This document shows, one piece after another, positions 11,446-25,549 of a stretch of 64,000 bases of DNA (its first letter is position 1; each line of letters starts with the position of its first letter). The stretch lies in IMG/VR virus record IMGVR_UViG_3300030380_002570; one strand, 5' to 3'. The notes beneath the pieces were generated by a model, which saw only the letters and a program-made list of their open reading frames with translations, ran no database searches and had not been told where the DNA came from. A program made the position numbers and the translations under genes. Origin of the DNA: an uncultured virus (IMG/VR IMGVR_UViG_3300030380_002570). Lineage: Duplodnaviria; Heunggongvirae; Uroviricota; Caudoviricetes.

Positions 11446-12161
11446 TACGCAGACTCCCCATAAAAGCGTTCCTCCCACTTCTTGTGCCTACGGATAGGCT
11501 CCTTGAAGTAAGGCAGGAATCTAGCGATGTACAAAACAAATCGGTTAACAAGTCTCAACGGCATAGGTAGTGGTCTCAGGTAATCCAGAAACAACACTAT
11601 ACGATATCCGTTGGTCATGTTCACGGCAAAATGCTCGTATGTGTCATCAAACACTACGGCCTTGCCTTCTTCCCACCGATACTCTTGCTTATCGACCACA
11701 AGGACACATCCCTTCCCGTCGGTTGGAACCTGTATCCCCATGTGAATTCTTAGAACGCCGCACCACGGCCCGTTGTGTGGCATCAGCATTTTGTTTGGCC
11801 CGATTACAGAAAAGTAGGCAGATACCAAATTCTTATCTGAATCTAGGATTTTCATGGTCTCTGGGAACTCTTGGCAGTTCCTCTCGAACCGCACGTTCCC
11901 TGCCTTGAGGAAAAACATCTTCCACTTGTCATCGTTTGAAATGAACGTCTGATCCGGGCTGATCTCTTGGAACGGTGCGAACTCATGCAGTCGTACTTGC
12001 ATCTGCTCGAACTCAGCCTTTATCACATCGTAGTTCTTTTCAAGAACGTCAGTGAAAGGAAAGTCTTTGTTCTCAAAGAATACCTTGTCACCAAAGGTGG
12101 AATACCTTCGGAAGAACGGCTTCAACACCGTATCTATGACGTACCCTTTGACTTCAATCAA
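11445..12161 (-). CDS. Aspartyl/asparaginyl beta-hydroxylase family (AspH/LpxO-like) 2OG-Fe(II) dioxygenase
   Basis: PH-x-G, LRIHMG, W-x-EG...FDDTYEH, RIVLFLD motifs. Confidence 0.85.
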   Translation of the reverse strand: MIEVKGYVIDTVLKPFFRRYSTFGDKVFFENKDFPFTDVLEKNYDVIKAEFEQMQVRLHEFAPFQEISPDQTFISNDDKWKMFFLKAGNVRFERNCQEFPETMKILDSDKNLVSAYFSVIGPNKMLMPHNGPWCGVLRIHMGIQVPTDGKGCVLVVDKQEYRWEEGKAVVFDDTYEHFAVNMTNGYRIVLFLDYLRPLPMPLRLVNRFVLYIARFLPYFKEPIRRHKKWEERFYGESA

Positions 12162-13663
12162 TAGTACGAAGCCCTTCTGGGGTAGTGAGGCTCGTCTTCC
12201 TCATCGGAGTTTAGCCTCAGGAACCCGCCTTGGCGGAACCTAAGCAGTGCCTGTGTCGATGAGTCCACAAGGTCATCGTGGTCGCCAGCCGGGAAAGCAG
12301 CGAACTCTTCGATCACTTCCTCGGCAAACCTCGTTCCCGGTGCCCATACAATGCCAGATGCAAACAGGTCTGAGACCGCATTCACACGACTGATCTTGTC
12401 GTTACCTCTGGACGGGGTGTACTCCGCGACTGGGATGCCCATCGCTCGTAGCTCAAAGATCAGCGGTGTTCCCGCTGCTTTAGCCTCCACGATAGTGGCA
12501 TCAGGTTGCCAGTCGTTATAGAACTCCATTGCCGCTTTCTTCAGTTCTGGGAACTCAAGACGCTCTTTGTGGGCATCCAGCAGTATGATATTCGGCTGGG
12601 TGACGCCATCATCGTCGGGCTTGTAGAAAACGCCCCACGTAGTGCAAGCGGAGAAGTCGGAACGCTGCGTCTTCAAGAACGCCGTATCCCACGACTGAAT
12701 TATAAATTCACACGGCGGAGGACGATCACTCTCCCATCTTTGCCACCAATCCCTCTTGACCAGCGCCCCTTCCTCTGAGGTGGGGTTCTGCTGGTACTGG
12801 GCATTCCATTTGGGTGCCGGCAGTTCGTTCTGTAGGGAGGTTAGTTCCTCCAAAGACCAGAACTCAGGCCATAGCGCCTTGCCGGATGGCATGATCGCTG
12901 GGAACTCAATCACCTCCCATTCATCGGTGCCTGCCCGTTGAACGGATGATTTGATGATCTGTCCCGTCAAATCTCGTTTGTGCCATCGGGTCATAACCAC
13001 AATGATGGCTCCTCCCGGCTGCAAACGCTGTCGAGGCCCGGAGGTATACCACTCGTATACACGGTCAAACACGCCGGGATCTGCACTCTGACCTTCTTGC
13101 TCAGAATGCGGGTCATCAATGATCAGCAGATCGGCACCTTTACCAGTGACCGCACCACCAACACCGATAGCGAAGTATTCGCCGTTCTTACTGGTACTCC
13201 ATCGACCAGCAGCCTTTGAGTCAGATCGCAAGCCTAAGTCGGGGAACACGGTCTTGTAGTCCTCTGCATCGACAAGGTTACGAACCTTACGACCAAAACC
13301 TACAGACAACTCGGCGGTATGCGCCGTCTGGATAATTTTCTTTTCGGGGTATTTGCCAAGGAACCATGCTGGCAGGAGATACGAAGCAAACTCGGACTTC
13401 GTGTGTCTGGGCGGCATGTTGATGATTAGCCGCTTTAATTCCCCTCTAGCTACACGCTCGAAAGCATCAGCCATTATCTTGTGGTGCCGTCCTTCGATAA
13501 AGGCAGGCCACACATAATTCACAAACCCCATGAACTCTTCACGGGCACGTTCTTTCTTCTCTGTTTCTTCTAAGGCTTCAAGAAGCTCTAGGATCTCTTT
13601 CTGCTCTTCTATCGGAAGATCAGTCACTCCTTTGAGCAAATCTTTGTCGATTCTTTTTGACAT
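12158..13663 (-). CDS. terL: Terminase large subunit
   Basis: MPPRHTKS Walker A-like, IIDDP Walker B, SWDTA and HDDLVD nuclease motifs. Confidence 0.95.
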   Translation of the reverse strand: MSKRIDKDLLKGVTDLPIEEQKEILELLEALEETEKKERAREEFMGFVNYVWPAFIEGRHHKIMADAFERVARGELKRLIINMPPRHTKSEFASYLLPAWFLGKYPEKKIIQTAHTAELSVGFGRKVRNLVDAEDYKTVFPDLGLRSDSKAAGRWSTSKNGEYFAIGVGGAVTGKGADLLIIDDPHSEQEGQSADPGVFDRVYEWYTSGPRQRLQPGGAIIVVMTRWHKRDLTGQIIKSSVQRAGTDEWEVIEFPAIMPSGKALWPEFWSLEELTSLQNELPAPKWNAQYQQNPTSEEGALVKRDWWQRWESDRPPPCEFIIQSWDTAFLKTQRSDFSACTTWGVFYKPDDDGVTQPNIILLDAHKERLEFPELKKAAMEFYNDWQPDATIVEAKAAGTPLIFELRAMGIPVAEYTPSRGNDKISRVNAVSDLFASGIVWAPGTRFAEEVIEEFAAFPAGDHDDLVDSSTQALLRFRQGGFLRLNSDEEDEPHYPRRASYY

Positions 13664-14139: not shown

Positions 14140-14589
14140 TTAGTGGAGCGGTGATTCGTCTGCCGCTGATGCTAATCGTTTCTCTATCTCGGCGGCTATT
14201 TCATCCGGTGATCGCTCGACCTTCTCGACAACCTGCTTATCGCTGAACAATGCAACCGTCCGGCCCAGCAGTTGAGCCGCAGCCAATTGAGCATTAGTAG
14301 GTTCATCACCTGTCGTTGGATCGATGCCGTCCTCCACCCATCGCCGCAGCTTACCCACGACCAATTCTCTGTCCGAGACCGCCTTTCGCTGAATCGCCCG
14401 CTCCTTTAGCCCAATCAGTACATCCACCCTTGCGGTAATCTTGGGGTCTTTCATCAGCCGCGACCCCTCACTATGTACTGTCGAATCCTTACCGTTGCTG
14501 TTGAACGCCTCACGGTAAGCGTCCGCCTGACTGCTACCCCCAGCAACCAGTTGAGCAAACCGTTCCTGTTTCGGTGTGAGCTTATCCAT
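14140..14589 (-). CDS. terS: Terminase small subunit
   Basis: LTPKQERFA...ADAYREA...SRLMKDPKI HTH pattern typical of TerS; upstream of terL. Confidence 0.8.
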   Translation of the reverse strand: MDKLTPKQERFAQLVAGGSSQADAYREAFNSNGKDSTVHSEGSRLMKDPKITARVDVLIGLKERAIQRKAVSDRELVVGKLRRWVEDGIDPTTGDEPTNAQLAAAQLLGRTVALFSDKQVVEKVERSPDEIAAEIEKRLASAADESPLH

Positions 14590-14720
14590 TGACCCCCCTT
14601 TTCGAGCACTTACCCTTGCCGCATCGCATCGCTTTTTTCCCTATTTGAATTTATCTCGACCCGATGACCCCCCTTTTTCAGGGGTAAACCGTGCCGCATC
14701 GCATCACCTTCCCCCTACTT
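14590..14720. repeat. Imperfect direct repeat, 75-bp period
   Basis: TGACCCCCCTTTT at 14590 and 14665; TGCCGCATCGCATC at 14617 and 14692. Confidence 0.75.
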
Positions 14721-14882
14721 TTGCCCTGTTTCGGGATCGGTTTTGTTTGCCTATATAGTGGCTGTCATTCTATCCGCCCCACGTCACCCCACCAGCCCAT
14801 GACCTACGACCCCCGACCTATGACCAACAGGAATATAACCCTAGCGCACAATTCATTGTTCGTTGGTCGTGATATGTGATTT

Positions 14883-14888
14883 TATAAT
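14883..14888 (+). promoter_or_regulatory. Putative -10 box of the early promoter
   Basis: Perfect TATAAT just before the structured region and the plus-strand operon; no well-spaced consensus -35. Confidence 0.45.
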
Positions 14889-14894
14889 GACCAA

Positions 14895-15295
14895 CGGCGA
14901 CGGGGAGCCGACTCAATCCCGCCCAGCCCCTCACGGGGTGCCTTGAAAGACAGGCTTAAATGAGAGACTACCAGCCGGTCAAAGGTGCTGAGAGCAGGAT
15001 AGGCGAAGTGCTATGCAGATCGTCCCGCAACGGGCATATCGATAGCGAGTTTTTGAGGTCAACTACGAACGGAACGAGGCCAACAATACTAACGAGACCT
15101 GCAACCCCTCACGGGGTTAGAACTAAACTGGTGGTGAAGGCTAGGGTTGAGTGGGAATGAGTGATGCAGATCGAACCGCAACGGGCATATCGGTCACGAC
15201 TTCCCAGCCCGACACCCTGACACCAGCCAACATTCTAGACGTGAGACTTACCAGAGCGCACTGGCAATCGGGCTAGTGCTTTCGAGTAAGTCACA
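14895..15295 (+). ncRNA. Candidate large structured ncRNA (~400 nt) with duplicated modules
   Basis: Nested helices found by eye; GCAGATCG-NN-CCGCAACGGGCATATCG twice; CCCC-TCAC-GGGG hairpin twice; no convincing ORF. Confidence 0.65.
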
Positions 15296-15310
15296 ACCGG
15301 AGAACGTGCT

Positions 15311-15367
15311 ATGGACAATCAAGATCACAAGGATTTTGAGGAATTCATGCGAGAGCAAAACCTTTAA
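15311..15367 (+). CDS. Putative 18-aa peptide MDNQDHKDFEEFMREQNL
   Basis: GGAGAACGTGCT-ATG initiation context nearly identical to that of ardC. Confidence 0.35.
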   Translation: MDNQDHKDFEEFMREQNL

Positions 15368-15397
15368 CCCAACCCCCACGCAAACAGGAGAAAACCA

Positions 15398-15607
15398 ATG
15401 CGTAACTTTTACAACCATACCCCGCTGGAGCAGGCCCGAATGGACGTGCTGCAAGCGATCTCAAACATGGCAAAGGATTACATGTCCCACAACCCTCATG
15501 CCGAGACCGAGGGCTTCAACACTTACAAGCGCAAGCACCTTGCGAAGATGTATTACAAGCTCGCGGAACAGTGGGATCTCGATACCGCTGCCATCTTGGA
15601 AATATAG
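15398..15607 (+). CDS. Hypothetical early protein (69 aa)
   Basis: RBS aggaga; stop codon abuts the hammerhead. Confidence 0.7.
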   Translation: MRNFYNHTPLEQARMDVLQAISNMAKDYMSHNPHAETEGFNTYKRKHLAKMYYKLAEQWDLDTAAILEI

Positions 15608-15669
15608 TCGAAACCGCCTCTGGCGGTCTGCATCGATTGGCCCCGATGCACTGATGATGACAGGCCCAA
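15607..15669 (+). ncRNA. Hammerhead ribozyme, type II
   Basis: gtc-GAA-stem III accgcc/ggcggt-C(15628)-stem I tgcatcg/cgatgca-CTGATGA-t-gac; loop I ttggcc can pair with downstream ggcccaa. Confidence 0.85.
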
Positions 15670-15692
15670 CTTAAACTTTAGGAGAACGTGCA

Positions 15693-16631
15693 ATGCGCGA
15701 TGTATATCAAGAAATCACCGACCGAATCGTGGCTCAGATGGAGTCTGGCGACAGCAACTGGATCAACCCGATGGCAGGCTCTGGCCTTGGCGGAGGCTGG
15801 CCTATGAACGCCACCACCGGCAAACGATACAACGGTATCAACGTGATGCTGCTGATGGGCCTGACGGTATTCAACGGCAAGGAACATGTACCCGCCGCCA
15901 GTCAGCAGTGGGCGACATTCAAGCAGTGGAAGGCCAAGGGCTGCACAGTCGTGAGCGGCAAGGGCAGCGGCAACATGATCGTCTTTTTCGAGAAGCTGGA
16001 GGTGAAGGATCGCAAAGACCCTACCGGCGAAACCAAGATACATATCCCATATTTCAAGGCGTCCTCCGTGTTCTCTGCCGAGCAGGTCGAGGGCGAGTAT
16101 GCCGAGCAGTTCAAGGTCGAGCGTGAGCCGCTGACTGAGGTCGAGCAGATCGCAGCCGTCAACGACTGGGTGACAAGCTACGTCAACGGTACTGATCTCA
16201 CGATCAACTACAACGAGACAGGCCGTGCGTTTTACCGTCCCAGCACCGACTCGATCCACATGCCACCCGCTGATGGATTCGAGGCCACCGCAACGTCAAC
16301 CGCTACCGAGTGTTTCCACTCAACCCAGCTTCACGAGTTGACTCACGCCACTGGTAACAAGGCTCGTCTGAACCGGCTCGACATCAAGAACAACGACGGC
16401 TACGCCTTCGAGGAATTGGTTGCCGAGTTGGGCGCTGCGTTCCAATGCCTGATGCTGGGCGTCAGCGCCGAGCCACGCGAGGATCACGCTAAGTACCTCA
16501 ACAATTGGATCGCCGCGCTGAAGAATGACAAGCGCCTGATCTACCGAGCCGCCAAGCTTGCACAGAAGGCTGTCGATCACATCGCGGAGCACCAACCCTC
16601 CGCTGAACAATCAACTGAAGAGGCCGCCTAG
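15693..16631 (+). CDS. ardC: ArdC-like ssDNA-binding antirestriction protein with zincin-like metallopeptidase domain
   Basis: YQEITD-x-I, NATTGKRYNGIN, WATFKQW, AFY-x-P-x-x-D-x-I, HELTH-x-TG, YAFEELVAELGA. Confidence 0.9.
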   Translation: MRDVYQEITDRIVAQMESGDSNWINPMAGSGLGGGWPMNATTGKRYNGINVMLLMGLTVFNGKEHVPAASQQWATFKQWKAKGCTVVSGKGSGNMIVFFEKLEVKDRKDPTGETKIHIPYFKASSVFSAEQVEGEYAEQFKVEREPLTEVEQIAAVNDWVTSYVNGTDLTINYNETGRAFYRPSTDSIHMPPADGFEATATSTATECFHSTQLHELTHATGNKARLNRLDIKNNDGYAFEELVAELGAAFQCLMLGVSAEPREDHAKYLNNWIAALKNDKRLIYRAAKLAQKAVDHIAEHQPSAEQSTEEAA

Positions 16632-16651
16632 TGCGGCCCGAGGGCATCAAA

Positions 16652-17038
16652 ATGAAAGTACATGTATTCCAATTCAACCTGACAGATATGGAACGGGTAG
16701 AGCTAGAACACCTTGGCTGGGAGGCGACGGATCGCATCAGCCAGTGGGGTGAAAAGCGCCTGCTTCAGATCGCTGGCGACGAGGCGGTGGCAGAGTTCGC
16801 CGCCGCGAACATCGATGAATACGAACTGGTCGTGACCGTCGAAATGCCAGACACCGACGAGTGGACTGCGCTGGAGGTGGCCTACGGTGAGATGAATCAC
16901 TGGGCTAACCCAGACAACATTACCCGTCACCGGATGTGCGCCAGTATGTCTGTCGGTGACATCTGCGAGATCAACGGGCAACTGTTTGTCTGCGCCACAT
17001 TTGGATTCGATAAATTAAATCTAGGAGAGGCCGCATAG
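16652..17038 (+). CDS. YodL-like protein
   Basis: SMSVGDI...F...GF motif; ATG 16652 follows a purine-rich RBS. Confidence 0.6.
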   Translation: MKVHVFQFNLTDMERVELEHLGWEATDRISQWGEKRLLQIAGDEAVAEFAAANIDEYELVVTVEMPDTDEWTALEVAYGEMNHWANPDNITRHRMCASMSVGDICEINGQLFVCATFGFDKLNLGEAA

Positions 17039-17056
17039 CGGCCCAAGGGGATCAAC

Positions 17057-17437
17057 ATGATAGTGAAAGTTGAAACATGGGAAGTGCTGGACGGCGATGA
17101 TCGCCGTAAGTTCAGCAATCGATTCGACGCGCTGCGTTACGGCGTCAGATCGCAGGGCATGGTGGACATCGAACTTTGGTATCACACCGGCAGGCGACTA
17201 GCGAATGGCTTTGCTTACGAGGGTGAGCGCAGCCTTGAGATGGTGGAGTCGGTGACTCTATATGAGAACGCCGATCACCCGTGGCTGCAATTCGGATTCG
17301 ATGGGTGGCTTGATCTGCAAGAGCTTGTTGCCTATGACATTTCTCGCGCCGAGGGCGGACAGTTTGAGCCAGTGTCGTACATGTCATGGGCCGAGAAATT
17401 AATGAATGAATCAGGACTGAAGAGGATCGATTTATGA
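17057..17437 (+). CDS. Hypothetical early protein
   Basis: In operon, RBS aagggg. Confidence 0.65.
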   Translation: MIVKVETWEVLDGDDRRKFSNRFDALRYGVRSQGMVDIELWYHTGRRLANGFAYEGERSLEMVESVTLYENADHPWLQFGFDGWLDLQELVAYDISRAEGGQFEPVSYMSWAEKLMNESGLKRIDL

Positions 17438-17661
17438 ACGCATTGTATACCGACGGCGACGGGCGCTGGCACTCACAGTACATCGCCAAGACCAAGGGCA
17501 TGAGCCTCGACTCATTGCTCCATGTCATGCAGGACTGCGCCGCAGCGATATCTGCTAACCCAGACAATCCTAAGTGTGGGCAGTACGCCGACGAGCGCCA
17601 CTACTGCGCGATGGAATTAGAGCGCCGACGCAAGGCATTCAACGCTAAATTTTCCAACTGA
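17434..17661 (+). CDS. Hypothetical early protein (75 aa)
   Basis: Coupled start; its stop codon lies inside the hammerhead core CTGA. Confidence 0.65.
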   Translation: MNALYTDGDGRWHSQYIAKTKGMSLDSLLHVMQDCAAAISANPDNPKCGQYADERHYCAMELERRRKAFNAKFSN

Positions 17662-17712
17662 TGAGACCAGATGGTGACTGGTCGAAACGCCGCGAGGCGT
17701 CTTGGATAACCA
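17653..17712 (+). ncRNA. Hammerhead ribozyme, type I
   Basis: Stem I tccaa/ttgga, CTGATGA, stem II gaccag/ctggtc, GAA, stem III acgcc-GCGA-ggcgt, GTC cleavage after 17701; loop II tggt pairs with acca 17709-17712. Confidence 0.92.
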
Positions 17713-17773
17713 ACTTCACATCATTCGTGAGTCGTGGTACGCTGCACTCACATTATCAATCAGGAGACGGACT

Positions 17774-18214
17774 ATGAACATCACTGAAGACAACTATTGG
17801 AACAACCGAGGCCGGTATCAGGACAAGGCGGACAAGCTAGAGGCATTGATCCCTCGCATGGGCGAGGTTGAGAACGCCGAGCAGCGACCCGAGCTAGAAA
17901 GATTCCGCGCTGCCGTCAACGCCTATTACGATCTGTTCAACAACGGCGGTTGGAACAGACCATCCGAGATCGCAGACATGTTCTTCCTCAACATCGAAAA
18001 GATCGACGGGAACTACGACGCATCCACATGCCCTCACTGCGGGTGCAGTTGCCCCGATTACGAGGAAGAGGATGACGCCTGCGACGATTACCGCATGCGT
18101 GGCGTACCCGTACCGCCAACCCTTTACACAGACGAGGAGGTGTACGCGAGGACTGAACCCGTCATGTCCGAGATCATTCTCGACGCATACGCAGCGGAGT
18201 TCCCCGATGCCTGA
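17774..18214 (+). CDS. Hypothetical early protein (YYDLFNNGG motif, CxxC)
   Basis: RBS aggaga before ATG 17774. Confidence 0.7.
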   Translation: MNITEDNYWNNRGRYQDKADKLEALIPRMGEVENAEQRPELERFRAAVNAYYDLFNNGGWNRPSEIADMFFLNIEKIDGNYDASTCPHCGCSCPDYEEEDDACDDYRMRGVPVPPTLYTDEEVYARTEPVMSEIILDAYAAEFPDA

Positions 18215-18407
18215 TCACCTCATTAAGAACGCCACGATCAGGAAGGTACGCAATCGGGGGTTCACCCCCGTGAGCTACCACCATGATTCGGGCATCCACA
18301 ACGGCTGGATTCACAAGGTAGGAACCAAGTGGAACCACGCATTCTTTCCATCCCTTGGCAACGTGCGAATCAGCAAGGCTGATATGCGCTTCGTCAAGGA
18401 ACTGTAG
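18207..18407 (+). CDS. Hypothetical early protein
   Basis: Overlaps the previous stop; RBS ggag. Confidence 0.55.
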   Translation: MPDHLIKNATIRKVRNRGFTPVSYHHDSGIHNGWIHKVGTKWNHAFFPSLGNVRISKADMRFVKEL

Positions 18408-18567
18408 ACCCACCAACAGAAGGAGTACCTGCCAGTGGTGCATTGAAACCATTCGCCCATGAGTGACCCCGTAGGATTCATGGAGTGGTGTGCGGCTTCG
18501 CGGGGCGCTGAGGGGAGGGCCGTCACCCCTCAGTGTCAAGAGTATCGATTTATTTTAGAAGGACAAC

Positions 18568-18864
18568 GTGATGAAAGACCAGAACGAAATGCCAAACGAG
18601 TGGCAGCAACATCAGATTAGCATCGCCATCGATGCTTTTGAGGATGCTCTCTTGGAGCAGATGGACAAACTCGGAGACGCTAACGTCCCACCATACGAGG
18701 TGGTGTACGCAGCGGTGAGGATGTTCACTCACCTGTGCTTTGACATGGCACCGTCAGAGGACGTGGCGCGGAAGACAATCGAGGCTTCAGTTGAGGCAGG
18801 CTACAAAGCCTTTCTCACTGGCGAGATCGATGGGGGTTGCCCCCACTGCCAAGAGGAGGCATAG
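18568..18864 (+). CDS. Hypothetical protein with C-terminal CPHC
   Basis: RBS aagga; in operon. Confidence 0.65.
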   Translation: MMKDQNEMPNEWQQHQISIAIDAFEDALLEQMDKLGDANVPPYEVVYAAVRMFTHLCFDMAPSEDVARKTIEASVEAGYKAFLTGEIDGGCPHCQEEA

Positions 18865-18866
18865 CC

Positions 18867-19370
18867 ATGACGATCAAATCCAAACGCGGCCCTAACGTGA
18901 CACCCGACGAGCACAAGCTCGTCGTGAAGTTTGCAAAGCAGTGCCTGAGAGAGATCTGCAAGAAGCAGCATGAGATCGAGTATCAAGGCAAGCCTGTCGT
19001 GTATGCCGAGGCTATCAAGCGGCTTCAGGTACGGACAAAGTATCGCAGTCAGAGAAGCTACGGCTCCGAGATTTACATCTGCGTCGATATGCAACGCTAT
19101 CGCCAGAACCTTACCTCGTTCACTGAATACAAATCGTTTGCTGATGATCCGGTTATTGGCACCATCAGAAACTGCGATGACCGTGAGCTACTGCTCAAAT
19201 GCTTGGTCGCTCATGAGATGGCGCACCATATCCAAATGAGGTACGGGCTGTACACCCGCTACCTCAGGAATACGTTCCACAAACCGCATGGCGATGCATT
19301 CAAGACGATCTACCGTGAGCTACGGCGCACGTTGATCAACCCGTACATCGAGAGCAGGGAGGCTGCGTGA
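18867..19370 (+). CDS. SprT-like zinc metallopeptidase
   Basis: HEMAH plus downstream HG-x-x-F motif; RBS gaggagg. Confidence 0.65.
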   Translation: MTIKSKRGPNVTPDEHKLVVKFAKQCLREICKKQHEIEYQGKPVVYAEAIKRLQVRTKYRSQRSYGSEIYICVDMQRYRQNLTSFTEYKSFADDPVIGTIRNCDDRELLLKCLVAHEMAHHIQMRYGLYTRYLRNTFHKPHGDAFKTIYRELRRTLINPYIESREAA

Positions 19371-19567
19371 TTATGTTTACTGAAAAGGAACTAGCTAGCT
19401 TGATGCACGATCTAGTAGAAGCAACTGATCACGAGCGAATCAAGATGGGCCGTCGTTGGGCCACACTTGAGGAAACATTTTACGACTACTTGGATGAGGT
19501 TGGCGGCATGTCATCCGATGAAATCGAACAAGTGCTTGAAGAAATAAAAATACAGGAGGCCGTGTGA
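19367..19567 (+). CDS. Hypothetical acidic protein
   Basis: GTGA coupling at both ends. Confidence 0.6.
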   Translation: MIMFTEKELASLMHDLVEATDHERIKMGRRWATLEETFYDYLDEVGGMSSDEIEQVLEEIKIQEAV

Positions 19568-20745
19568 TGGAAGGAGATCTATACCAACACGTTCTGCATG
19601 CCCTTAGAAACCCCGACAAGCGTATTCTCGGATCATCCAAGGGGACAGATCCCAATAGCGCAAGGGCATTGTTCAAGCTCTTTAACAATCGTCTGAAGAC
19701 GGCTCGTAAATTCGACATCGATAACGCTCTGCTGGAGCGTGTATTTCAAGAGCCTAGCTGGGCCGAGTTGACCAAAGACAACGGACATCTGCCGATCAAA
19801 ACAATCACCCGCAACGTGGTGGAAGCCGAGCAGGAACTGAGGCTGCCGTTCAAGGATTGTTGGATTGAGTTCGATGCAAAGACGTACAACGCACAAGTTG
19901 CAGACTTAGATTGGTCAGTAGGGCGCGTCGGCCTTGAAAATGAAGGAGACAGAAAGCTGTTTGAGTTTGAAAGAGCAGGCGTCTTTCTGTCTGAAAAATA
20001 TAATGGGCAGATAGATATTCATCTGTTCTTCAGTCTCGACGGCGACGATAGAATCTACATGGCGATGCTGGGGCGTAGCTTCAGAAACCCAGTACTCGAA
20101 AAGCCCCTGACTGACGTTGCCCTACGTCATATTTCCCTGCTCAATTTTGGCGTGGACTTTCAATACGAGCCGCCGTCTGAGGCTTACGATGGCTATCTTG
20201 AATTGCTTAATCGCACTCGGATTACGGAGATGATGGAGGTCTTTGGTGATGAATACACCGCTAAGGCATTCGAGAATTTTGTCGAGCCGTGGGCACCATA
20301 CTATGTGCGGATCTCATGGGAGATACTGCGCGTTCTGAACTACCCGTGGGTGGTCAGAGAGCAGGCCCGATTCGAGAGATCAAAGAAGGGCCGCAGCCCC
20401 AAGGTCACGCCTCGTGATTCGTACTACCGCTGCAAGATCAAGCTGCCCAAGCCTGATGGCGTGGAGACTCGGCAGCTAGAGCCACGCGACGAGGCATACG
20501 GCAAGCGCCTGCATCAGGTGCGTGGGCACTGGCGTGTGTACCGTGATGAACACGGCGACTTCGTCAAGCGCACATGGATCAGAGAGCACAGGCGTGGCGA
20601 TGCCAAGCTAGGTGTAGTGCTGAAGGACTATGTACTGACTGGCGAAGGTACGTCTTGCGCCCAAAAAGGTACGTCTTGCGCCCAAACTGGCAGCAACGTA
20701 TCATCAACAAACACATCACAACTAACGGAGAACGTGAATGGATAA
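19564..20745 (+). CDS. Phage protein with C-terminal H-x-VRGHWR...WI-x-x-H-x-RG motif
   Basis: 393-aa ORF with a motif common in phage hypothetical proteins. Confidence 0.7.
   Translation: MMEGDLYQHVLHALRNPDKRILGSSKGTDPNSARALFKLFNNRLKTARKFDIDNALLERVFQEPSWAELTKDNGHLPIKTITRNVVEAEQELRLPFKDCWIEFDAKTYNAQVADLDWSVGRVGLENEGDRKLFEFERAGVFLSEKYNGQIDIHLFFSLDGDDRIYMAMLGRSFRNPVLEKPLTDVALRHISLLNFGVDFQYEPPSEAYDGYLELLNRTRITEMMEVFGDEYTAKAFENFVEPWAPYYVRISWEILRVLNYPWVVREQARFERSKKGRSPKVTPRDSYYRCKIKLPKPDGVETRQLEPRDEAYGKRLHQVRGHWRVYRDEHGDFVKRTWIREHRRGDAKLGVVLKDYVLTGEGTSCAQKGTSCAQTGSNVSSTNTSQLTENVNG
20645..20686. repeat. Perfect 21-bp tandem duplication
   Basis: AAGGTACGTCTTGCGCCCAAA x2, in frame. Confidence 0.9.
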
Positions 20746-21211
20746 TGTAATCAAGCTCCCGACAAGGGACATGTGGAGAAATGCCGTCGAGATCTGGGAC
20801 GGCTACCGGATGACACTCGATCCTTGCAAACGGTGGATACCTATGCTGACAGGCACTGGTCTGTCTGAAGCTAAGGCCGAGAAGCATGTGCGAGAGATGA
20901 TCGGGATCATCCCTGACTTCTATCAATCGGCAGTGATCCACACTGATCGCAACGGCACCATTGAAGAGTTCGCCCGAGTCATGGACGAGTGCTATGGCTG
21001 GGGTGGATTCAACGATTCTATGTTCAACGGCACGGTGACCGATACCGGCGTTTACACCAGCGAGTATGACGGGGACGAGAATCTATACCCGCTAGCCCAT
21101 CTCATCATGTCAACTGAGAGCGAGGCTGACGTTGAGTGTTACATCTACGAGTATGGAATCGTCGCTCTGATTGATGCTTGGGGTGAATCCAAAGTAGCGA
21201 GGTTCGACTGA
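20738..21211 (+). CDS. Hypothetical protein
   Basis: RBS ggaga; coupled. Confidence 0.7.
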   Translation: MDNVIKLPTRDMWRNAVEIWDGYRMTLDPCKRWIPMLTGTGLSEAKAEKHVREMIGIIPDFYQSAVIHTDRNGTIEEFARVMDECYGWGGFNDSMFNGTVTDTGVYTSEYDGDENLYPLAHLIMSTESEADVECYIYEYGIVALIDAWGESKVARFD

Positions 21212-21537
21212 TGAACTACGATACTTTCGAGGAGATCTTTGACGAGATCGAAGACAAGATTGATCGGCTAGAGAAAGCCCAGTACACCCTTGCGTCTGTC
21301 GAGTCTAGCTTCAAGTCTTACGAGGCTTCGACCAAGAAGGCGTATATGGATGCTGGCATGAGTGCCGTGGCAGCCGAGGCCGAGATGAGAGCGGTAGGAG
21401 AAAGCTGGCGAGACTTCTACCTGCAAGTTCAAGAACATTCCAGCCGAGTGGAAAAGATCAAGCGCACGATCAAGCTGCTAGAGATGCGGCATGACGCGCT
21501 TCGATCTGCCAAGGCTGACGCAAGGAGGGTGGTATGA
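21211..21537 (+). CDS. Coiled-coil hypothetical protein
   Basis: TGATG coupling; helical composition. Confidence 0.65.
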   Translation: MNYDTFEEIFDEIEDKIDRLEKAQYTLASVESSFKSYEASTKKAYMDAGMSAVAAEAEMRAVGESWRDFYLQVQEHSSRVEKIKRTIKLLEMRHDALRSAKADARRVV

Positions 21538-21770
21538 ACGAGAACGAGAAGAACAAGTTCAGAGATCTGCTGGCGAACAAGAAGAATGTCTCTGAGATCC
21601 AAGAGATCTTGCTCAACAAGGCCACGCTCATGGTGGCATATCCCGATGCGTCAGCGGATGAAAGTGGGATGTGGGACTGGCAGGTCAGCGCCTGTCGGAT
21701 AGAACTGCGTCGGCGGTGGCAATCCAAACACCCGAAACCAACAGTAATCAAGAAGGAAGCAAACAGATGA
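21534..21770 (+). CDS. Hypothetical protein
   Basis: ATGA coupling; RBS aggagg. Confidence 0.6.
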   Translation: MNENEKNKFRDLLANKKNVSEIQEILLNKATLMVAYPDASADESGMWDWQVSACRIELRRRWQSKHPKPTVIKKEANR

Positions 21771-21991
21771 GCAAATTAAAAACGCAGTATCTGCAACTGA
21801 CCAATGAAGAGGGTGCCCTGCTGGACAGGCTCTTGGCTACGTCAAAGGATGACCCAAGGATTCACGGACTGATCGGCACCTGTCTTTGGGACATGGGCCA
21901 CACCCCAGAGGAAGAGGCTCACGCGAAAGCCTTGTGGACTAGCTTGCAATCAAAGGTGAAGGAGGCGTTCAATGACAAGTCTGATGGATGA
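21767..21991 (+). CDS. Hypothetical protein
   Basis: ATGA coupling at 21767. Confidence 0.6.
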   Translation: MSKLKTQYLQLTNEEGALLDRLLATSKDDPRIHGLIGTCLWDMGHTPEEEAHAKALWTSLQSKVKEAFNDKSDG

Positions 21992-22199
21992 TATGGTTGA
22001 GATCATGGAACTAGCCGATGAGATTTTGTCAACTGGTCGCGGCGGTGACTACGAGGTTACAATCGTGTATCGACAGGGCCGAGGGGCTAAGACCGAGACG
22101 CAAACCTTTCGAGGCGTGAGGCTTGACGAGATATCTAGCCTCGCACCTATAAGCGATGGCTGGTTGATCGATTCTCTCAGCGCAAAGAAGTTTAGATAG
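21972..22199 (+). CDS. Hypothetical protein
   Basis: RBS aggagg. Confidence 0.6.
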   Translation: MTSLMDDMVEIMELADEILSTGRGGDYEVTIVYRQGRGAKTETQTFRGVRLDEISSLAPISDGWLIDSLSAKKFR

Positions 22200-22205
22200 A
22201 ACTAG

Positions 22206-22340
22206 AGCCTCACGTTGAGCAGGCTAGCGGTGGGGTCAGTTCAATCCGGCGAATCATATAAGCCGGACTCCTCCGAGAAATAGGTACGATGAAGTGCGCG
22301 GCTCATGGATTATTAGGCGCGAATCGTATCGTCCACCGCA
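22206..22340 (+). ncRNA. Candidate multi-branched structured RNA
   Basis: Closing helix gcggtgg/ccaccgc encloses tccggc/gccgga and tacgat..gcgc/gcgc..atcgta arms; strand uncertain. Confidence 0.4.
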
Positions 22341-22360
22341 CCCTAACACTAGGATAAATC

Positions 22361-23071
22361 ATGATCGATTTCACAGATCTAATCGGCTCAATGTCTATCG
22401 TTGAGTTCGAGGCAAACCATCGTGGCAAAACCTTTGCCGTATTCCCCCGAACCGAAGCTCGAACAGAACTGTTCGACAACATAATCGACTGGCAGCAGTT
22501 CAGCAGTTACCTGAACAATGACCGCGCCACCGCTGGGATGCAGGCTATCACTCTCGATGGCAGGAAGCTTTGCATGGAAAAGGGAAACCTTGAGCGGGAG
22601 AGCAGACCTAACTGGGGTCGCAAGGACTACTTTGAGAAGAAGTATCTGCACGAGATATGGAAGCAGGGTGGATCTCTGATCCTTACGAAGGCTTCACTCC
22701 TCACCCCAAGAATTAGCCTGATCGCTGGCGCGATTGAGCAGTACTACATGGGCGCAGCCGACGCACACTTCTATTGCAGTGGTGAATCCAACGCCTCCAC
22801 ATTCCCCTTTCACATCGATCAGGATGACAACTTCTTGGTGCATGCACAGGGAGACGTTAGCTGGGAGATAGCAAACAGTTTCGAGAATGACGAGGATGAT
22901 TTCACGTCACTGGATCTGACCGTGGGAGATCTTCTCTACATCCCCAAGGGTCTCATGCACAGGGCCATACCTAAGACCAAACGAATCTCTATCTCCGTGC
23001 CAGTGGCAGAACGCAAAGCAAACGAAGGCGCACTGAAGACGCAAGACAGAACGTACTACGATTTCTCTTGA
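22361..23071 (+). CDS. JmjC/cupin-domain 2OG-Fe(II) oxygenase (YcfD/RoxA-like)
   Basis: F-x-x-H-x-D, FLVHAQG...W and GDLLYIPKG-x-x-H motifs. Confidence 0.8.
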   Translation: MIDFTDLIGSMSIVEFEANHRGKTFAVFPRTEARTELFDNIIDWQQFSSYLNNDRATAGMQAITLDGRKLCMEKGNLERESRPNWGRKDYFEKKYLHEIWKQGGSLILTKASLLTPRISLIAGAIEQYYMGAADAHFYCSGESNASTFPFHIDQDDNFLVHAQGDVSWEIANSFENDEDDFTSLDLTVGDLLYIPKGLMHRAIPKTKRISISVPVAERKANEGALKTQDRTYYDFS

Positions 23072-23192
23072 AGGGGTGACCCCGCACAGGCAGAAGGAGA
23101 TACCCATGCGGGGCCGGTTGTAACGCCAAGGAGAGACGGGGCGTTACATGAATTCTAGTGGACGTATACGGACGGCGCAAGACACCTCACGA

Positions 23193-23702
23193 CTAACCGT
23201 GCATCGAAATGTAGTCCCTATCTAACGCCTGCAACCCCACACGAAACATGATCAGATCCTCTGCTGGAGGACTGATGTCCTTAGCCATGCACATCACGAT
23301 GATCGCAGTCGTTTCTTCCCCTACCGCCTGCTCTATGCAGTTGACCACGTCACGCAATCGGATCAGCCCATGCGTGTAGTTGGTCTTCTTGAACCTGCTA
23401 CTGGAGCCAGTGCTTTCCATGTTCACACCCCGTACAAACGCCCCTGCATCCAACAGCGTCTGGAGGATGTACTCCCCCGCCTTGTGCTCCACATCAGTAA
23501 TCAAACCACCCAACAACATCTTGTCGATCTGAAGTTGATCGGTGACCCGCGCCCTTGCAACGGCCTCACCGTCTTCCTTCTCCAGCACCACCCTGTGCTG
23601 CTCATGCAGCTTGGAGTTTCCTACGTCATTGATGGCATCGTCAGATGTCCCAGTCACTTTCTCTTTCATGGTAATCCCTACGGCCTGCGTATCTGCTGGC
23701 AA
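23193..23702 (-). CDS. Hypothetical protein downstream of primase-helicase
   Basis: ORF with protein-like composition; true start may be 23669. Confidence 0.65.
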   Translation of the reverse strand: MPADTQAVGITMKEKVTGTSDDAINDVGNSKLHEQHRVVLEKEDGEAVARARVTDQLQIDKMLLGGLITDVEHKAGEYILQTLLDAGAFVRGVNMESTGSSSRFKKTNYTHGLIRLRDVVNCIEQAVGEETTAIIVMCMAKDISPPAEDLIMFRVGLQALDRDYISMHG

Positions 23703-25437
23703 ACGAGTTGTCTACCTGCTCCTCCCAGTCCTCATAATCTTTGTATCGCCCGTTCACCGGATCGTAGGATAGCTTTGCAGAACCTACCGTACCAATCCAT
23801 TTGAAGCGGCACTTCCAACTGTGAACCTCTATATATTCCCCGAGCCTATGCACTGTGATCCCACAGTCAGCCTTAGCGAACCACGCCGCACTGCCGCTGA
23901 TGTGATTACCGTTGGGCACCGGCATGGTGCCGTTCTCGTTTGCTCTCATCTTCGCAGGGTGTGCAATGAACCAGATGTGCAGGTCACATGACCGTGCGAA
24001 CTGCACCATCCGAGTCAGCATGTCGCTGATCGCCTGATGCTCCTGATCGTTGGTGTTCTGTGCTATGTAATTGTAGGGATCGATCACCAACCCCCGGCAC
24101 CCCAGCCTCATCACCGCTTGCTTGGTACGGTCTATGATGTTGTCGATGGTGGCAGCCTCGCCGTCTTTGCTATCCAAGAACGCGAAGTGATCGTTGACCC
24201 AGCCCCTAGCCTCAGTCATCTCACCCTCAGTCATGCGCTCTGTCTGCCCCTCAAAGAAAGGCTTACGCATCCGCTTCTCTGCAAGCTTGATGATGTGCAT
24301 CGCTGGCGGGTTCTCGAAGCTGGCGATAGCAAACTTCCAATCGTGTTCTTCAGCGAGGTTGACCATCACAGAGTCAATCCATTCGCTCTTGCCAGATCCC
24401 GGCAGGCCAGTGACCACCGTCAACTGTCCCTCCAAGACGGTGTAAATACCATCCAGTCCAGAGTATCCGGTGGACTTGCCACTCATCAGCCCCCTGTCAT
24501 ACAAGAACTGCACGTCATCTGAGTAATCGTCTGCCGAGTACACGCCGACCAGCGGTGTAGGTGTAGCCTCCTCTACCAGATCAGCTAGGTACTCAGGGCC
24601 GTGCTTCATCAGAACATCATTAGCATCCTTGCAGCCTTCGGGGATCTCAAGGTGATAGCACTTGGCTCTTCCCACGCGGCGCATAATCTCTTCACCCAGA
24701 GCCTCTCCCGGCTCATCGGTGTCCATCGCTAGCACGATCTTGTCTGCCTTCTCAAAGATGTCTTTGCTCTTCCACAGGTAGGCGAACTTGCGATCCTCCT
24801 CTGGATCTACCTTGCGGTTGCTAACCTTCTGGGGGGCACCATTTGGAACTGACACCACCAAGGTATCGTCCCGTTTACCTATGGCATCAACGATGGATAC
24901 GGCATCCATCTCACCTTCTGTGATGATCACTGTGGTGAGCGCCTCGCCCGGGTCGTTCTCTACGTTCCACAGGGTTTGCGCTGCCCCGTCTTGAATGAAC
25001 CGCTTGCCTTCGACGCTACGCCATTTGGTGGCGGTGTCTTCGTACCGAAACCCAACCGCCGGTAGATCACCAGCCCCGTGGAAGAAGTGGCTGGCCCCGA
25101 CGATCTTGAGATGATCGACTCTCTCTGGAGTGATGCCACGGGATATCAGAAAGTTCTGGCAGATAACGGGATCGGTCTTGGCTTTCTTTGTTATGGGCAT
25201 GACCTTAGCTGGCGCATCTATATCAAAGTCATCGTCCACGCTACTCTTGTGCCTCACCTTGCCTGACATATCGCAATGCCAGCAGTTATATAACAGCCCC
25301 TCGCCATCTTCCGTAATGCTTAGTGTCTTCTCTCCCTTCTTCTTTCGATGTGGCCCACATACTGGGCATTGGTGCCTGCCGTCTCCAAGCTGGCGAATGG
25401 AATAGTCGAGATCCTCATCCCGTAGTTGCTGGTTCAT
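23641..25437 (-). CDS. Bifunctional DNA primase-helicase (T7 gp4/Twinkle-like)
   Basis: CPVC...CWHC zinc finger, TOPRIM (EGEMD, D-x-D, KDAND), GLPGSGKS Walker A, VIDP, AHP; RBS aggaga before ATG 25437. Confidence 0.92.
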   Translation of the reverse strand: MNQQLRDEDLDYSIRQLGDGRHQCPVCGPHRKKKGEKTLSITEDGEGLLYNCWHCDMSGKVRHKSSVDDDFDIDAPAKVMPITKKAKTDPVICQNFLISRGITPERVDHLKIVGASHFFHGAGDLPAVGFRYEDTATKWRSVEGKRFIQDGAAQTLWNVENDPGEALTTVIITEGEMDAVSIVDAIGKRDDTLVVSVPNGAPQKVSNRKVDPEEDRKFAYLWKSKDIFEKADKIVLAMDTDEPGEALGEEIMRRVGRAKCYHLEIPEGCKDANDVLMKHGPEYLADLVEEATPTPLVGVYSADDYSDDVQFLYDRGLMSGKSTGYSGLDGIYTVLEGQLTVVTGLPGSGKSEWIDSVMVNLAEEHDWKFAIASFENPPAMHIIKLAEKRMRKPFFEGQTERMTEGEMTEARGWVNDHFAFLDSKDGEAATIDNIIDRTKQAVMRLGCRGLVIDPYNYIAQNTNDQEHQAISDMLTRMVQFARSCDLHIWFIAHPAKMRANENGTMPVPNGNHISGSAAWFAKADCGITVHRLGEYIEVHSWKCRFKWIGTVGSAKLSYDPVNGRYKDYEDWEEQVDNSFASRYAGRRDYHERESDWDI

Positions 25438-25478
25438 AGCGTCTCCTTCTTGTGAACCGTTTTCGATTGTGATATTTA

Positions 25479-25549
25479 TAGAACGTTCCACTGTAGAACG
25501 TACTATTTAACCGAAGGTTATTGAGAACGTTCTACGATAGAACGTTCTA
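25479..25549. repeat. Second array of AGAACGTTCT palindromes
   Basis: Copies at 25479, 25494, 25523 and 25538. Confidence 0.85.

What the first reader, a model, noticed from the sequence alone, without database searches (positions are those of the whole stretch)
14895..15295. Candidate new ~400-nt structured phage RNA with two copies of a 27-nt module, heading the early operon
Seen: right after a TATAAT box (14883) lies a stretch with no convincing ORF that is rich in nested helices: gcagg/cctgc (14994/15098), tagaa/ttcta (15118/15233), ctggtg/caccag (15128/15221), agggt/accct (15143/15214), tgggaa/ttccca (15152/15201), gacttac/gtaagtc (15245/15286), gcactggc/gctagtgc (15258/15272). The module GCAGATCG-NN-CCGCAACGGGCATATCG occurs at 15015 and 15166. 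Each copy caps a different arm, and the closing helices differ in sequence yet both pair (gctat/atagc vs gtgat/gtcac), which is internal covariation. A CCCC-TCAC-GGGG hairpin precedes each arm (14927, 15105). Known: phages carry large ncRNAs of unclear function (ROOL, GOLLD) and structured motifs near hammerhead-associated genes. I do not recognise this one. Inference: a bivalent protein-binding decoy or scaffold RNA made at the start of infection, possibly anti-defence given the nearby ardC.
Basis: partly seen in the sequence, partly recalled or inferred. Interest (0 to 1): 0.85.

Follow-up and report, generated by a model that had tools for sequence, protein, structure and literature searches.

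The report
New folded early-leader RNA of marine phages
The flagged stretch encodes a real, roughly 400-base intricately folded RNA that uncultured marine phages place at the very start of their early genes; it matches no catalogued RNA family and its job is still unknown.

Summary
Window 14895-15293 (+) is a conserved structured RNA, not an ORF or chance. The 27-nt module occurs twice (0 of 100 shuffles). On 27 distinct relatives, 94.7% of cells in 49 pairs are paired against 35-40% with slid partners, and 28 pairs change on both sides. Only agggt/accct fails; GGGU/GCCC fits better.

No Rfam 15 family matches, even at E<=10. Nothing was found in GenBank phages or plasmids or in the papers searched.

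The family has an invariant 5' terminal domain about 7 nt after a -10 box. Its arms are swappable and carry 0-3 copies of a hairpin module. In 13 of 31 related loci a hammerhead ribozyme lies downstream on the same strand. In several it directly abuts the RNA, where this window's lineage has a conserved 3' hairpin.

Best reading (about 0.4): a discrete early RNA that acts as a multivalent protein-binding scaffold or decoy. A cis-acting leader is nearly as likely. Function, transcript ends and partner are untested.

The parts
14883..14888 (+). -10-like TATAAT box; inferred start of transcription about 7 nt downstream
   Evidence: Sequence. In 13 of 36 distinct upstream regions of relatives, a hexamer with at least 4 of 6 matches (A2 and T6 included) ends 4-9 nt before GGCG; shuffled mean 4.3, maximum 11 in 500. 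The generic promoter scan did not call it because the -35 is poor.
14895..15293 (+). The whole structured RNA (type A early-leader RNA)
   Evidence: L003 is alignable by blastn only over window 14886-15289 (76%) and again at the hammerhead. Covariation. No Rfam family.
14896..14923 (+). P1, the invariant 5' terminal domain: GGCG/CGCC plus GGG/CCC, with the GGGGAGCC...AAUCCC internal loop. Relatives insert a variable hairpin here (GCAA loop in L002).
   Evidence: P1 pairs invariant in 24-27 of 27. Shared with RNAs whose bodies are otherwise different.
14924..14969 (+). Lineage-specific replacement of P2 and module 1: two hairpins (14927-14938 and 14940-14955)
   Evidence: In most relatives a covarying P2 helix (ACCYC/GRGGU) encloses a module; in L185 P2 is capped by a UUCG loop.
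14971..14992 (+). P3 hairpin (CCAGC / GCUGG type)
   Evidence: helix 4: 98.8% of cells paired, 2 pairs with changes on both sides.
14994..15102 (+). Arm 1, closed by P4 (GCAGG 14994-14998 with CCUGC 15098-15102)
   Evidence: helix 5: 100% paired; variants GCGUG/CACGC, GCUAG/CUAGC, GCGAG/CUCGC.
15010..15046 (+). Module copy 1 (27-nt core 15015-15041) with closing helix GCUAU/AUAGC
   Evidence: L125 has GCUGC/GCAGC at this position.
15047..15097 (+). Insert specific to a subgroup, carrying a GAGGYCAAC direct repeat; no fold assigned
   Evidence: Nearly invariant in the window, L002, L003, L125, L185 and L199; absent from L131, L144, L146, L154 and L228.
15104..15117 (+). P6 hairpin (ACCCC-UCAC-GGGGU)
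   Evidence: helix 7: all 5 pairs change on both sides.
15118..15237 (+). 3' domain: P10 15118-15122/15233-15237, P7 15128-15133/15221-15226, P7a 15144-15147/15207-15210, P8 15152-15157/15201-15206, P9 15161-15165/15193-15197, and module copy 2 at 15166-15192
   Evidence: The whole domain is absent in L125 and L187.
15245..15292 (+). Conserved 3' hairpin (GACUUAC/GUAAGUC and GCACUGGC/GCUAGUGC, then UUUCGAG)
   Evidence: L146, L148 and L187 carry a hammerhead at the equivalent position instead.
15299..15367 (+). Ribosome-binding site GGAGAA (15299-15304) and a conserved 18-codon micro-ORF (15311-15367, MDNQDHKDFEEFMREQNL)
   Evidence: (D3: same ribosome-binding context as ardC).
15606..15669 (+). 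Type II hammerhead ribozyme; predicted cut after C15628
   Evidence: Rfam RF02276, 42 bits against a gathering score of 37. The cut site is inferred from the alignment and from general knowledge of hammerheads.
15693..16631 (+). ardC (ArdC N-terminal domain plus zincin metallopeptidase)
   Evidence: Pfam PF08401 at 5.7e-26 and PF18818 at 4.8e-35.

Best explanation
Window 14895-15293 encodes a member of an uncatalogued family of large, modular, structured RNAs. Uncultured marine and aquatic tailed phages make it as the first 200-400 nt of their early transcript.

Shown: the fold (P1-P10), maintained by compensatory changes on the + strand; an invariant 5' terminal domain; arms capped by a recurring hairpin module; hammerhead ribozymes downstream.

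Inferred: host RNA polymerase starts about 7 nt after the -10 box, so the base-paired P1 is the physical 5' end. The RNA is then set apart from the protein-coding message. In many relatives a hammerhead abutting its 3' end does this. In the window's lineage a conserved 3' hairpin holds that position, and a hammerhead cut is predicted at 15628 after two small ORFs.

Most likely mechanism: the matured RNA acts as a discrete early RNA in trans. Its 0-3 interchangeable hairpin modules and conserved junctions would bind a protein partner, from host or phage. It would serve as a scaffold or decoy during takeover or counter-defence, ahead of ArdC.

I put about 0.95 on 'a genuine structured RNA family' and about 0.4 on this mechanism.
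For: Structure: 49 pairs, 94.7% of cells paired against 35-40% with slid partners. 28 pairs change on both sides against 4-11 slid. 0 of 500 shuffles reach the observed values on four of the five measures; the count of further pair types did not exceed the shuffles. RNAalifold found compensatory changes in 24 of 44 pairs.

Strand: U-G at pair 323-355 in 23 of 27 sequences and U-G at pair 308-369 in all 19 with letters there; these would be A-C on the other strand. RNA-type loops sit in inserted hairpins: GCAA in L002, UUCG in L185 and L260.

Conservation island: L003 aligns only over 14886-15289 and at the hammerhead.

Separation from the message: Rfam finds hammerheads on the same strand downstream in 13 of 31 related loci. 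A hammerhead core directly abuts the RNA in L146, L148, L187, L153, L205, L206, L211 and L260. L125 (3' hairpin) and L187 (hammerhead) end the same truncated RNA in the two alternative ways.

Independence from the downstream gene: ArdC follows in 4 of 20 relatives tested plus the window; the other ORFs have no Pfam family.

Interchangeable modules: arm 2 carries the arm-1 type module in only three sequences.

Published parallel: hammerheads next to the anti-restriction gene ardA, and a hammerhead at the 5' end of the HF1/HF2 early transcript (PMC3088659, passages read).
Against: No transcript ends are known. The only RNA data are two 151-nt contigs at depth 2, in one salt-marsh metatranscriptome run, over 15108-15236 and 15309-15459; these could be DNA carry-over.

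In the window itself the hammerhead lies about 310 nt past the RNA, after two ORFs. There the RNA stays joined to coding sequence and could simply be a 5' UTR. In many relatives a ribosome-binding site and ORF follow the RNA directly.

No terminator-like site was found after the 3' hairpin. The single-sequence fold is no better than shuffles (z = -0.99). No partner protein is identified, and module number varies from 0 to 3. The generic scan did not call the promoter, and some close relatives lack a good -10 box.
Confidence: 0.4

Rival explanations
1. A cis-acting leader of the early operon. The RNA would act on its own transcript or on the polymerase that makes it. Candidate mechanisms: put-like processive antitermination, shielding a long untranslated stretch from Rho, protecting the 5' end from decay through the paired P1, or controlling translation of the first ORF.
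For: It always lies in the 5' UTR position, on the same strand as the first ORF, and starts at a fixed distance from the -10 box. In the window and many relatives the ribosome-binding site follows within about 6-25 nt of the 3' hairpin, with no ribozyme between. The minimal 5' domain, P1 plus one unpaired A plus the P2 hairpin, has the general shape of two promoter-proximal stem-loops, as recalled for HK022 put. The downstream genes differ, which suits control at operon level.
Against: In at least eight lineages a hammerhead cuts the RNA away immediately. That would sever a tethered antiterminator or a translational operator. The 200-400 nt of conserved junctions and arms far exceed what a put-like element or a 5' stabiliser needs. 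No excess of terminators is seen in the early operon: 20 terminator-like sites against 14.2 +/- 4.1 in shuffles, both strands.
Confidence: 0.32
2. A catalytic or ligand-sensing RNA. The invariant 5' domain and conserved junctions would form an active site or a binding pocket, for example a ribozyme that processes its own 5' end, or a riboswitch that senses the state of the host.
For: The sequences GGCGACGGGGAGCC...AAUCCCGCC and several junction strands (CUAAA, GGUGAAG, UAGGGUUGAA, GCCCGACA, CCAAC) are extremely conserved. Self-cleaving ribozymes lie nearby, and they are known to cluster (PMC5737381, passages read).
Against: No Rfam ribozyme or riboswitch matches at E<=10. The body differs between type A and type B while the 5' domain stays the same, which is unlike a single aptamer. 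Whole domains are dispensable in L125 and L187.
Confidence: 0.12
3. A DNA-level element in the intergenic region next to the terminase genes, such as a packaging site, a replication origin or an operator array. The repeats would be protein-binding sites on double-stranded DNA.
For: It lies between the divergent terS (14140-14589, minus strand) and the early genes. Direct repeats are present.
Against: Helices are kept by compensatory substitutions, and the G-U pairs work only on the + strand. Hairpin insertions carry GNRA and UUCG loops. Hammerheads are adjacent. The module sequences themselves are replaced by non-identical paralogues that keep the fold.
Confidence: 0.03
4. A protein-coding region, for example the ORF 14960-15160.
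For: A 66-codon ORF exists in the window.
Against: The ORF is present only in the window, L002 and, shortened to 58 codons, L185. Other relatives have their longest ORFs at different places, in different frames and on either strand. Mean column entropy by codon position is 0.905, 0.810 and 0.655, so the third position is the least variable. Indels are not multiples of three.
Confidence: 0.01

Closest known systems
Hammerhead-processed phage and prophage early transcripts: HF1/HF2 halovirus 'HHphage', and hammerheads flanking ardA (Perreault et al. 2011, PMC3088659; passages read)
   Same: A hammerhead sits in the early polycistronic transcript, just upstream of an anti-restriction or first early gene. 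Here one lies at 15606-15669 before ardC and a second at 17652-17707. In relatives a hammerhead lies directly between the leader and the first ORF.
   Different: The passages I read describe the ribozymes, not a large conserved structured RNA upstream of them. The 200-400 nt family with an invariant 5' domain is the new part.
ROOL (RF03087) and GOLLD (RF01998), large ornate RNAs of phages and prophages
   Same: Large, intricately folded, phage-borne, with many conserved junction nucleotides and no known function.
   Different: No match to either covariance model. This RNA is promoter-proximal at the head of the early operon rather than next to tRNAs, and it is smaller (about 200-400 nt). The oligomeric cages reported for ROOL and GOLLD (PMC12286853, abstract only) were not tested here.
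HK022 put RNAs (putL, putR), recalled from memory
   Same: Promoter-proximal RNA at the start of an early operon. The minimal 5' domain is two adjacent stem-loops.
   Different: put is about 70 nt and must act in cis. Here there are 200-400 nt of additional conserved structure, and in many lineages a ribozyme cuts the RNA off. No sequence comparison was possible.
Leader-derived phage RNAs: P4 CI and P1/P7 C4 (recalled from memory); phi29 pRNA (recalled from memory)
   Same: A functional RNA matured from the 5' part of an early transcript. For pRNA, an early-promoter RNA encoded beside the packaging end of the genome.
   Different: Those are 70-175 nt, are matured by RNase P or not at all, and are catalogued in Rfam. 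No Rfam family of any kind was hit here.

Membership tests
Any Rfam 15 family (including GOLLD, ROOL, riboswitches, ribozymes, phage pRNA, c4, tmRNA) | Match to the family covariance model at or near its gathering score | tested here: not met
   Whole window at gathering scores: only Mu-gpT-DE and Hammerhead_II, both outside the element. 14500-15800 at E<=10: nothing inside 14895-15295. 14885-15310 alone at E<=10: only mir-4000 at 14.1 bits, E = 6.5. 31 related loci: only hammerheads and weak chance rows.
Structured non-coding RNA (generic) | Helices kept by compensatory substitutions in independent relatives, beyond controls | tested here: met
   28 of 49 pairs change on both sides; covariation score 0.421 against 0.03-0.06 with slid partners; 0 of 500 shuffles reach it.
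Structured non-coding RNA (generic) | No conserved reading frame | tested here: met
Structured non-coding RNA (generic) | Shown to be transcribed, with defined ends | tested here: inconclusive
   One metatranscriptome run, two 151-nt contigs at depth 2. No information on ends.
HK022 put-like antiterminator RNA | Lies just downstream of an early promoter | tested here: met
   The -10 box ends 7 nt before the RNA; enrichment of such boxes in relatives. The start site itself is inferred.
HK022 put-like antiterminator RNA | About 70 nt, two stem-loops, acts in cis while tethered to the polymerase | tested here: not met
   The RNA is 200-400 nt with more than ten helices, and a hammerhead abuts it in at least eight lineages. 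Antitermination activity cannot be tested with these tools.
Riboswitch or cis-regulatory leader | 5' UTR position, with a single conserved aptamer coupled to an expression platform | tested here: inconclusive
   The position criterion is met. No terminator or anti-ribosome-binding-site platform was found. The body is modular and differs between type A and type B.
Hammerhead ribozyme (the neighbouring element, not the RNA itself) | CUGANGA and GAAA core with three stems, scored by the Rfam model | tested here: met
   15606-15669: RF02276, 42 bits against a gathering score of 37. 17652-17707: RF00163, 30.8 bits, below the gathering score of 34, E = 6e-6 in a 301-nt search.
tRNA or tmRNA-like element | Recognised by ARAGORN | tested here: not met
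   0 genes in the window.

The most novel reading that the evidence does not exclude
Tailed phages of aquatic bacteria carry a previously unrecognised class of RNA-only early effectors. The first molecule made from the entering genome would be an ornate modular RNA with a universal 5' terminal domain, shared by at least two body types. A hammerhead or a 3' hairpin sets it free, and it acts before any phage protein exists. It might neutralise a host defence or seize a host machine, or it might itself be a new ribozyme or a self-assembling particle like ROOL and GOLLD.
Probability: 0.3. Interest if true: 0.9.

Novelty: categorically new. Interest (0 to 1): 0.75.

Why it matters
Large, highly conserved RNAs with complex folds are rare, and each one has eventually revealed new biochemistry. 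This family is well supported by comparison alone. It has a sharply defined position: the first bases transcribed, beside anti-restriction genes. It also has natural domain-deletion and domain-swap variants that amount to ready-made experiments.

It ties the long-unexplained abundance of hammerhead ribozymes in phage operons to a concrete upstream partner RNA. If the RNA acts in trans, it would be an RNA-level early takeover or counter-defence factor. If it acts in cis, it would be a new and unusually elaborate way of controlling a phage early operon.

What is new is the RNA class. The layout of leader, hammerhead and early gene is already known.

Tried and rejected
Rfam at gathering and relaxed thresholds on the window and 31 related loci gave no family for the element.

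blastn of the region against GenBank phages and PLSDB plasmids found nothing. A 52-nt 5' domain against phages gave only 18-21-nt chance matches at E = 4.

The nearest held virus record, G001, had no match. The window's own assembly is not held.

Two short search patterns were too unspecific or unspecific in part. The 14-mer GCCGGTCAAAGGTG gave at least 120 loci, almost all chance. The locus L127, found with a 16-mer, was also a chance hit.

In the genome collection, 28 of the 29 pattern hits were chance by nhmmer. The one true hit, L170, is a 2.2-kb contig binned into a metagenome-assembled genome, so it gives no reliable host.

Thermodynamic support failed: z = -0.99. The promoter and terminator consensus scans called neither the promoter nor a terminator at the element. 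ARAGORN found no tRNA-like element.

A scan of all column pairs for extra covarying helices or pseudoknots recovered the known helices and only 3-4-bp stacks that look spurious.

Metatranscriptome evidence came from one run holding 8% of the sampled words, as two tiny contigs. That is too weak to claim expression or habitat.

Paper searches gave no description of this RNA: hammerhead + ArdC + phage, 0 papers; the 13-nt 5' motif, 0 papers; three broader searches. The preprint 10.64898/2026.10.21.760802 (passages read) concerns other RNAs.

Look-ups of this scan's earlier findings by sequence, with the window, L253 and L146, found nothing.

I considered tRNA T-arm, sarcin-ricin loop, k-turn, cobalamin and ykkC resemblances by eye. 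All are recalled motifs and none passed a model search, so I dropped them.

Full report
WHAT IS THERE. The window is most of a roughly 65-kb tailed-phage genome. It carries terS (14140-14589, minus strand) and terL (12158-13663, minus strand). It also carries a plus-strand early and replication block from about 15300 to 29500 and a 2736-residue polyvalent protein. The closest cultured relatives by TerL are Pelagibacter phage HTVC027P (55%), phage DSL-LC04 (60%) and phage 023Pt_psg01 (60%). The flagged stretch lies between the divergent terS and the first plus-strand genes. TATAAT is at 14883-14888, and the sequence GGCGACGGGGAGCC starts at 14896.

CHECK OF THE OBSERVATION. The 27-nt module is present twice (15015-15041 and 15166-15192); no shuffle of 100 gave two matches. 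The CCCC-TCAC-GGGG repeat is real. On its own the sequence does not fold better than shuffles (z = -0.99), so the case rests on comparison with relatives.

RELATIVES. An exact-pattern scan of IMG/VR with the module gave three contigs: one identical, one 97% alike and one 76% alike (L003). In L003, blastn similarity is confined to window 14886-15289 and to the hammerhead at 15607-15666.

Scans with the most conserved pieces then gave more loci. The 3' hairpin gave 9 viral loci. An nhmmer profile of 12 seed sequences matched 34 of the 109 genome and metagenome loci. Twenty-six matched well beyond the 5' domain and 8 matched over the 5' domain alone. Only one of the 29 genome loci matched, a 2.2-kb contig in a metagenome-assembled genome. 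After removing duplicates there were 30 distinct type A sequences.

No GenBank phage or PLSDB plasmid has the element. The family is therefore known so far only from uncultured aquatic and marine viral contigs.

STRUCTURE. On a MAFFT alignment of 27 distinct sequences (A5), RNAalifold predicted 44 pairs, 24 of them with compensatory changes. I corrected and extended this by hand to 49 pairs in 12 helices and counted them on the same alignment, which was not fitted to the structure:
- 94.7% of cells are standard pairs, against 35-40% when the 3' partners are slid by 1-3 columns.
- 28 pairs change on both sides, against 4-11 slid.
- The covariation score is 0.421, against 0.03-0.06 slid.
- 0 of 500 column shuffles reach the observed values on four of the five measures. 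The exception is the count of further pair types (55 against 54.2; 235 of 500 shuffles reach it).

The helices are:
- P1: GGCG/CGCC and GGG/CCC. It is invariant, so it is not itself tested by covariation.
- P1b: a variable hairpin inserted into P1's internal loop, with a GCAA loop in L002.
- P2: ACCYC/GRGGU, which in most members encloses a module and in L185 is simply capped by UUCG.
- P3.
- P7: ctggtg/caccag; five of six pairs covary.
- P8: tgggaa/ttccca.
- P9: the closing helix of the module.
- The 3' hairpin, with variants GGUUUA/UAAACC and GCAUUGGG/CCCAGUGC.

GGGU (15144-15147) with GCCC (15207-15210) is 95% paired, and its first pair is G-C in 16 sequences and A-U in 7.

G-U pairs that would be A-C on the other strand fix the folding strand as +. 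The clearest case is U-G in 23 of 27 sequences at one P9 pair. No reading frame is conserved.

THE MODULE. The unit consists of a closing helix, a 3-nt bulge, a 3-4-bp helix, a 3x3 internal loop with a central G-A opposition (AGU/CAG, CGU/CAU or GUA/GCA), a short G+C hairpin with a variable loop, and a single bulged G (sequences).

Members carry 0-3 such units: after P2, in arm 1 and in arm 2. The two identical copies seen in the window occur in only three distinct sequences. L003, L199, L219 and L125 have one copy of that variant, and the first three also carry paralogous units. The units are thus interchangeable and partly dispensable, as expected of peripheral binding or packing elements.

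Whole domains are also dispensable. L125 and L187 lack the entire 3' domain.

A WIDER SUPERFAMILY. The 5' terminal domain (xGGCGACGGGGAGCC, variable loop or hairpin, AAUCCCGCC, A, P2 hairpin, GA) also heads RNAs whose bodies look unrelated to type A. These are L153, L205, L206, L209, L211, L233, L253/L250/L221, L254 and L260. Several of them share a different motif, AACGGC...GUAUA...GUCGGG. I did not analyse these further.

POSITION AND PROCESSING. In 13 of 36 distinct upstream regions a good -10-like hexamer ends 4-9 nt before GGCG, against a shuffled mean of 4.3 and a maximum of 11 in 500 shuffles. Some close relatives have poorer boxes, and the generic scan did not call the window's promoter. 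The start site is therefore an inference.

Downstream, Rfam finds a hammerhead on the same strand in 13 of 31 related loci (6 of 11; 7 of 20). By core-motif inspection a hammerhead directly abuts the RNA in L146, L148, L187, L153, L205, L206, L211 and L260 (8 of 46 pattern-bearing sequences; sequences). In L187 the predicted cut is a few nucleotides after P4.

Where the hammerhead abuts the RNA, the conserved 3' hairpin is absent, and the reverse also holds. L125 and L187 end the same truncated RNA in these two ways. This suggests that making or marking a 3' boundary is a conserved need.

In the window, the 3' hairpin (15245-15292) is followed by four elements:
- a ribosome-binding site and a conserved 18-codon micro-ORF (15311-15367);
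- a 69-codon ORF;
- the type II hammerhead (15606-15669; 42 bits; predicted cut after 15628);
- ardC.
A second, sub-threshold type I hammerhead lies at 17652-17707.

ArdC follows the RNA in the window and in 4 of 20 relatives tested, including one type B member. The other first genes have no Pfam family. Perreault et al. 2011 (PMC3088659, passages read) reported hammerheads flanking or preceding ardA, and a hammerhead at the mapped 5' end of the HF1/HF2 early transcript. The layout of ribozyme before an anti-restriction or early gene is therefore known. The large RNA upstream is not described in the passages I read.

HOW IT MOST LIKELY WORKS.

Shown: a conserved, + strand, non-coding fold; an invariant 5' domain; modular arms; hammerheads downstream.

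Inferred: transcription starts at about 14895, so P1 forms the paired physical 5' end. The RNA is the first thing transcribed from the early promoter. If packaging runs from terS toward terL, this region would also be the last DNA packaged and the first to enter the cell; that is a guess about packaging direction. A ribozyme or the 3' hairpin delimits the RNA.

From this I favour a discrete early RNA acting in trans as a multivalent protein-binding scaffold or decoy, at about 0.4. A cis-acting leader is close behind, at about 0.3. That covers antitermination, Rho shielding, 5' end protection and translational control. It is favoured by the constant 5' UTR position and by the window's own arrangement, where ORFs lie between the RNA and the ribozyme. 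It is disfavoured by immediate ribozyme cleavage in many lineages and by the sheer size of the conserved fold. A ribozyme or riboswitch role (about 0.1) is not excluded. DNA-level and coding explanations are effectively ruled out.

EXPRESSION. One metatranscriptome run held 8% of the sampled words. When laid on the window, it gave two 151-nt contigs at depth 2, over 15108-15236 and 15309-15459. This is compatible with transcription but far too weak to show it.

COMPARISON AND NOVELTY. No Rfam 15 family matches at any threshold tried. No paper in the searchable library holds the 5' motif or links hammerheads, ArdC and phages. Broader searches found only general ribozyme and ornate-RNA literature. 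Subscription-only papers and supplements were not searched, so a prior description cannot be fully excluded.

Earlier notes of this scan record the same layout in other uncultured phages, with other uncatalogued RNAs: promoter, large structured RNA, hammerhead, early genes. These notes are unchecked AI leads. None matched this family by sequence. They suggest that the layout is a general phage strategy, of which this family is a particularly well-supported and modular example.

VERDICT. The interpretation as a new structured phage RNA is supported, and the proposed function is plausible but untested. The RNA class is new and the surrounding layout is known. Interest is 0.75.

Noticed in passing
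window 17652-17707 (+): A second hammerhead (type I) lies between two early ORFs, with core CUGAUGA, stem II GACCAG/CUGGUC and GAAAC. Rfam RF00163 scores it 30.8 bits, below the gathering score of 34 (E = 6e-6 in a 301-nt search). The stop codon of the upstream ORF lies inside the CUGAUGA box.
   Followed up: partly
window 62516-62568 (-): Mu-gpT-DE RNA motif (RF03012, 72.3 bits), next to the 301-codon ORF at 62639-63544 (its product was not checked).
   Followed up: no
window 15311-15367 (+); also L131, L144, L125, L185, L150, L258: A conserved 18-residue acidic micro-protein (MDNQDHKDFEEFMREQNL-like) is encoded right after the RNA. In L144 and L125 it ends exactly where the hammerhead begins. 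L003 and L136 encode a longer protein with a similar N-terminus (MELNDH..FE..M.E).
   Followed up: partly
window 14590-14710 (+): Two copies, 78% alike and 75 nt apart, of a 46-nt direct repeat (TGACCCCCCTTTT...GCCGCATCGCATC) lie just upstream of terS. This may be a packaging or regulatory site.
   Followed up: no
window about 14855-14875, and the same place in L199, L136, L144, L150, L258, L185: Tandem (G/A)TTCGT half-sites 2-5 nt apart sit in the -35 region of the inferred early promoter and are conserved across subgroups. This may be an operator or an unusual -35 element.
   Followed up: no
L153, L205, L206, L209, L211, L233, L253, L250, L221, L254, L260: 'Type B' RNAs have the same invariant 5' terminal domain but different bodies of 200-300 nt. 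Several share the motif AACGGC...GUAUA...GUCGGG. Most end in a type III hammerhead whose stem III or stem II holds the first gene's start codon or ribosome-binding site.
   Followed up: partly
window 15299-15327 and 15681-15709: The same translation-initiation context (GGAGAACGTGC-ATG) precedes both the micro-ORF and ardC (repeat D3, 76% alike).
   Followed up: no
window 29671-37881 (-): A 2736-residue polyvalent protein (LPD38 and DUF7178 domains), of the kind associated with conflict between phages and conjugative elements and their hosts.
   Followed up: no
L154, L139, L194, L170 and related loci, about 270-300 nt after the RNA start: In this subgroup the sequence GGAC(C)UAAA that opens the 3' domain is repeated just after its end, inside a separate hairpin (CCGGA-CUAAAUCAA-UCCGG). 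This allows two alternative partners for P10.
   Followed up: no
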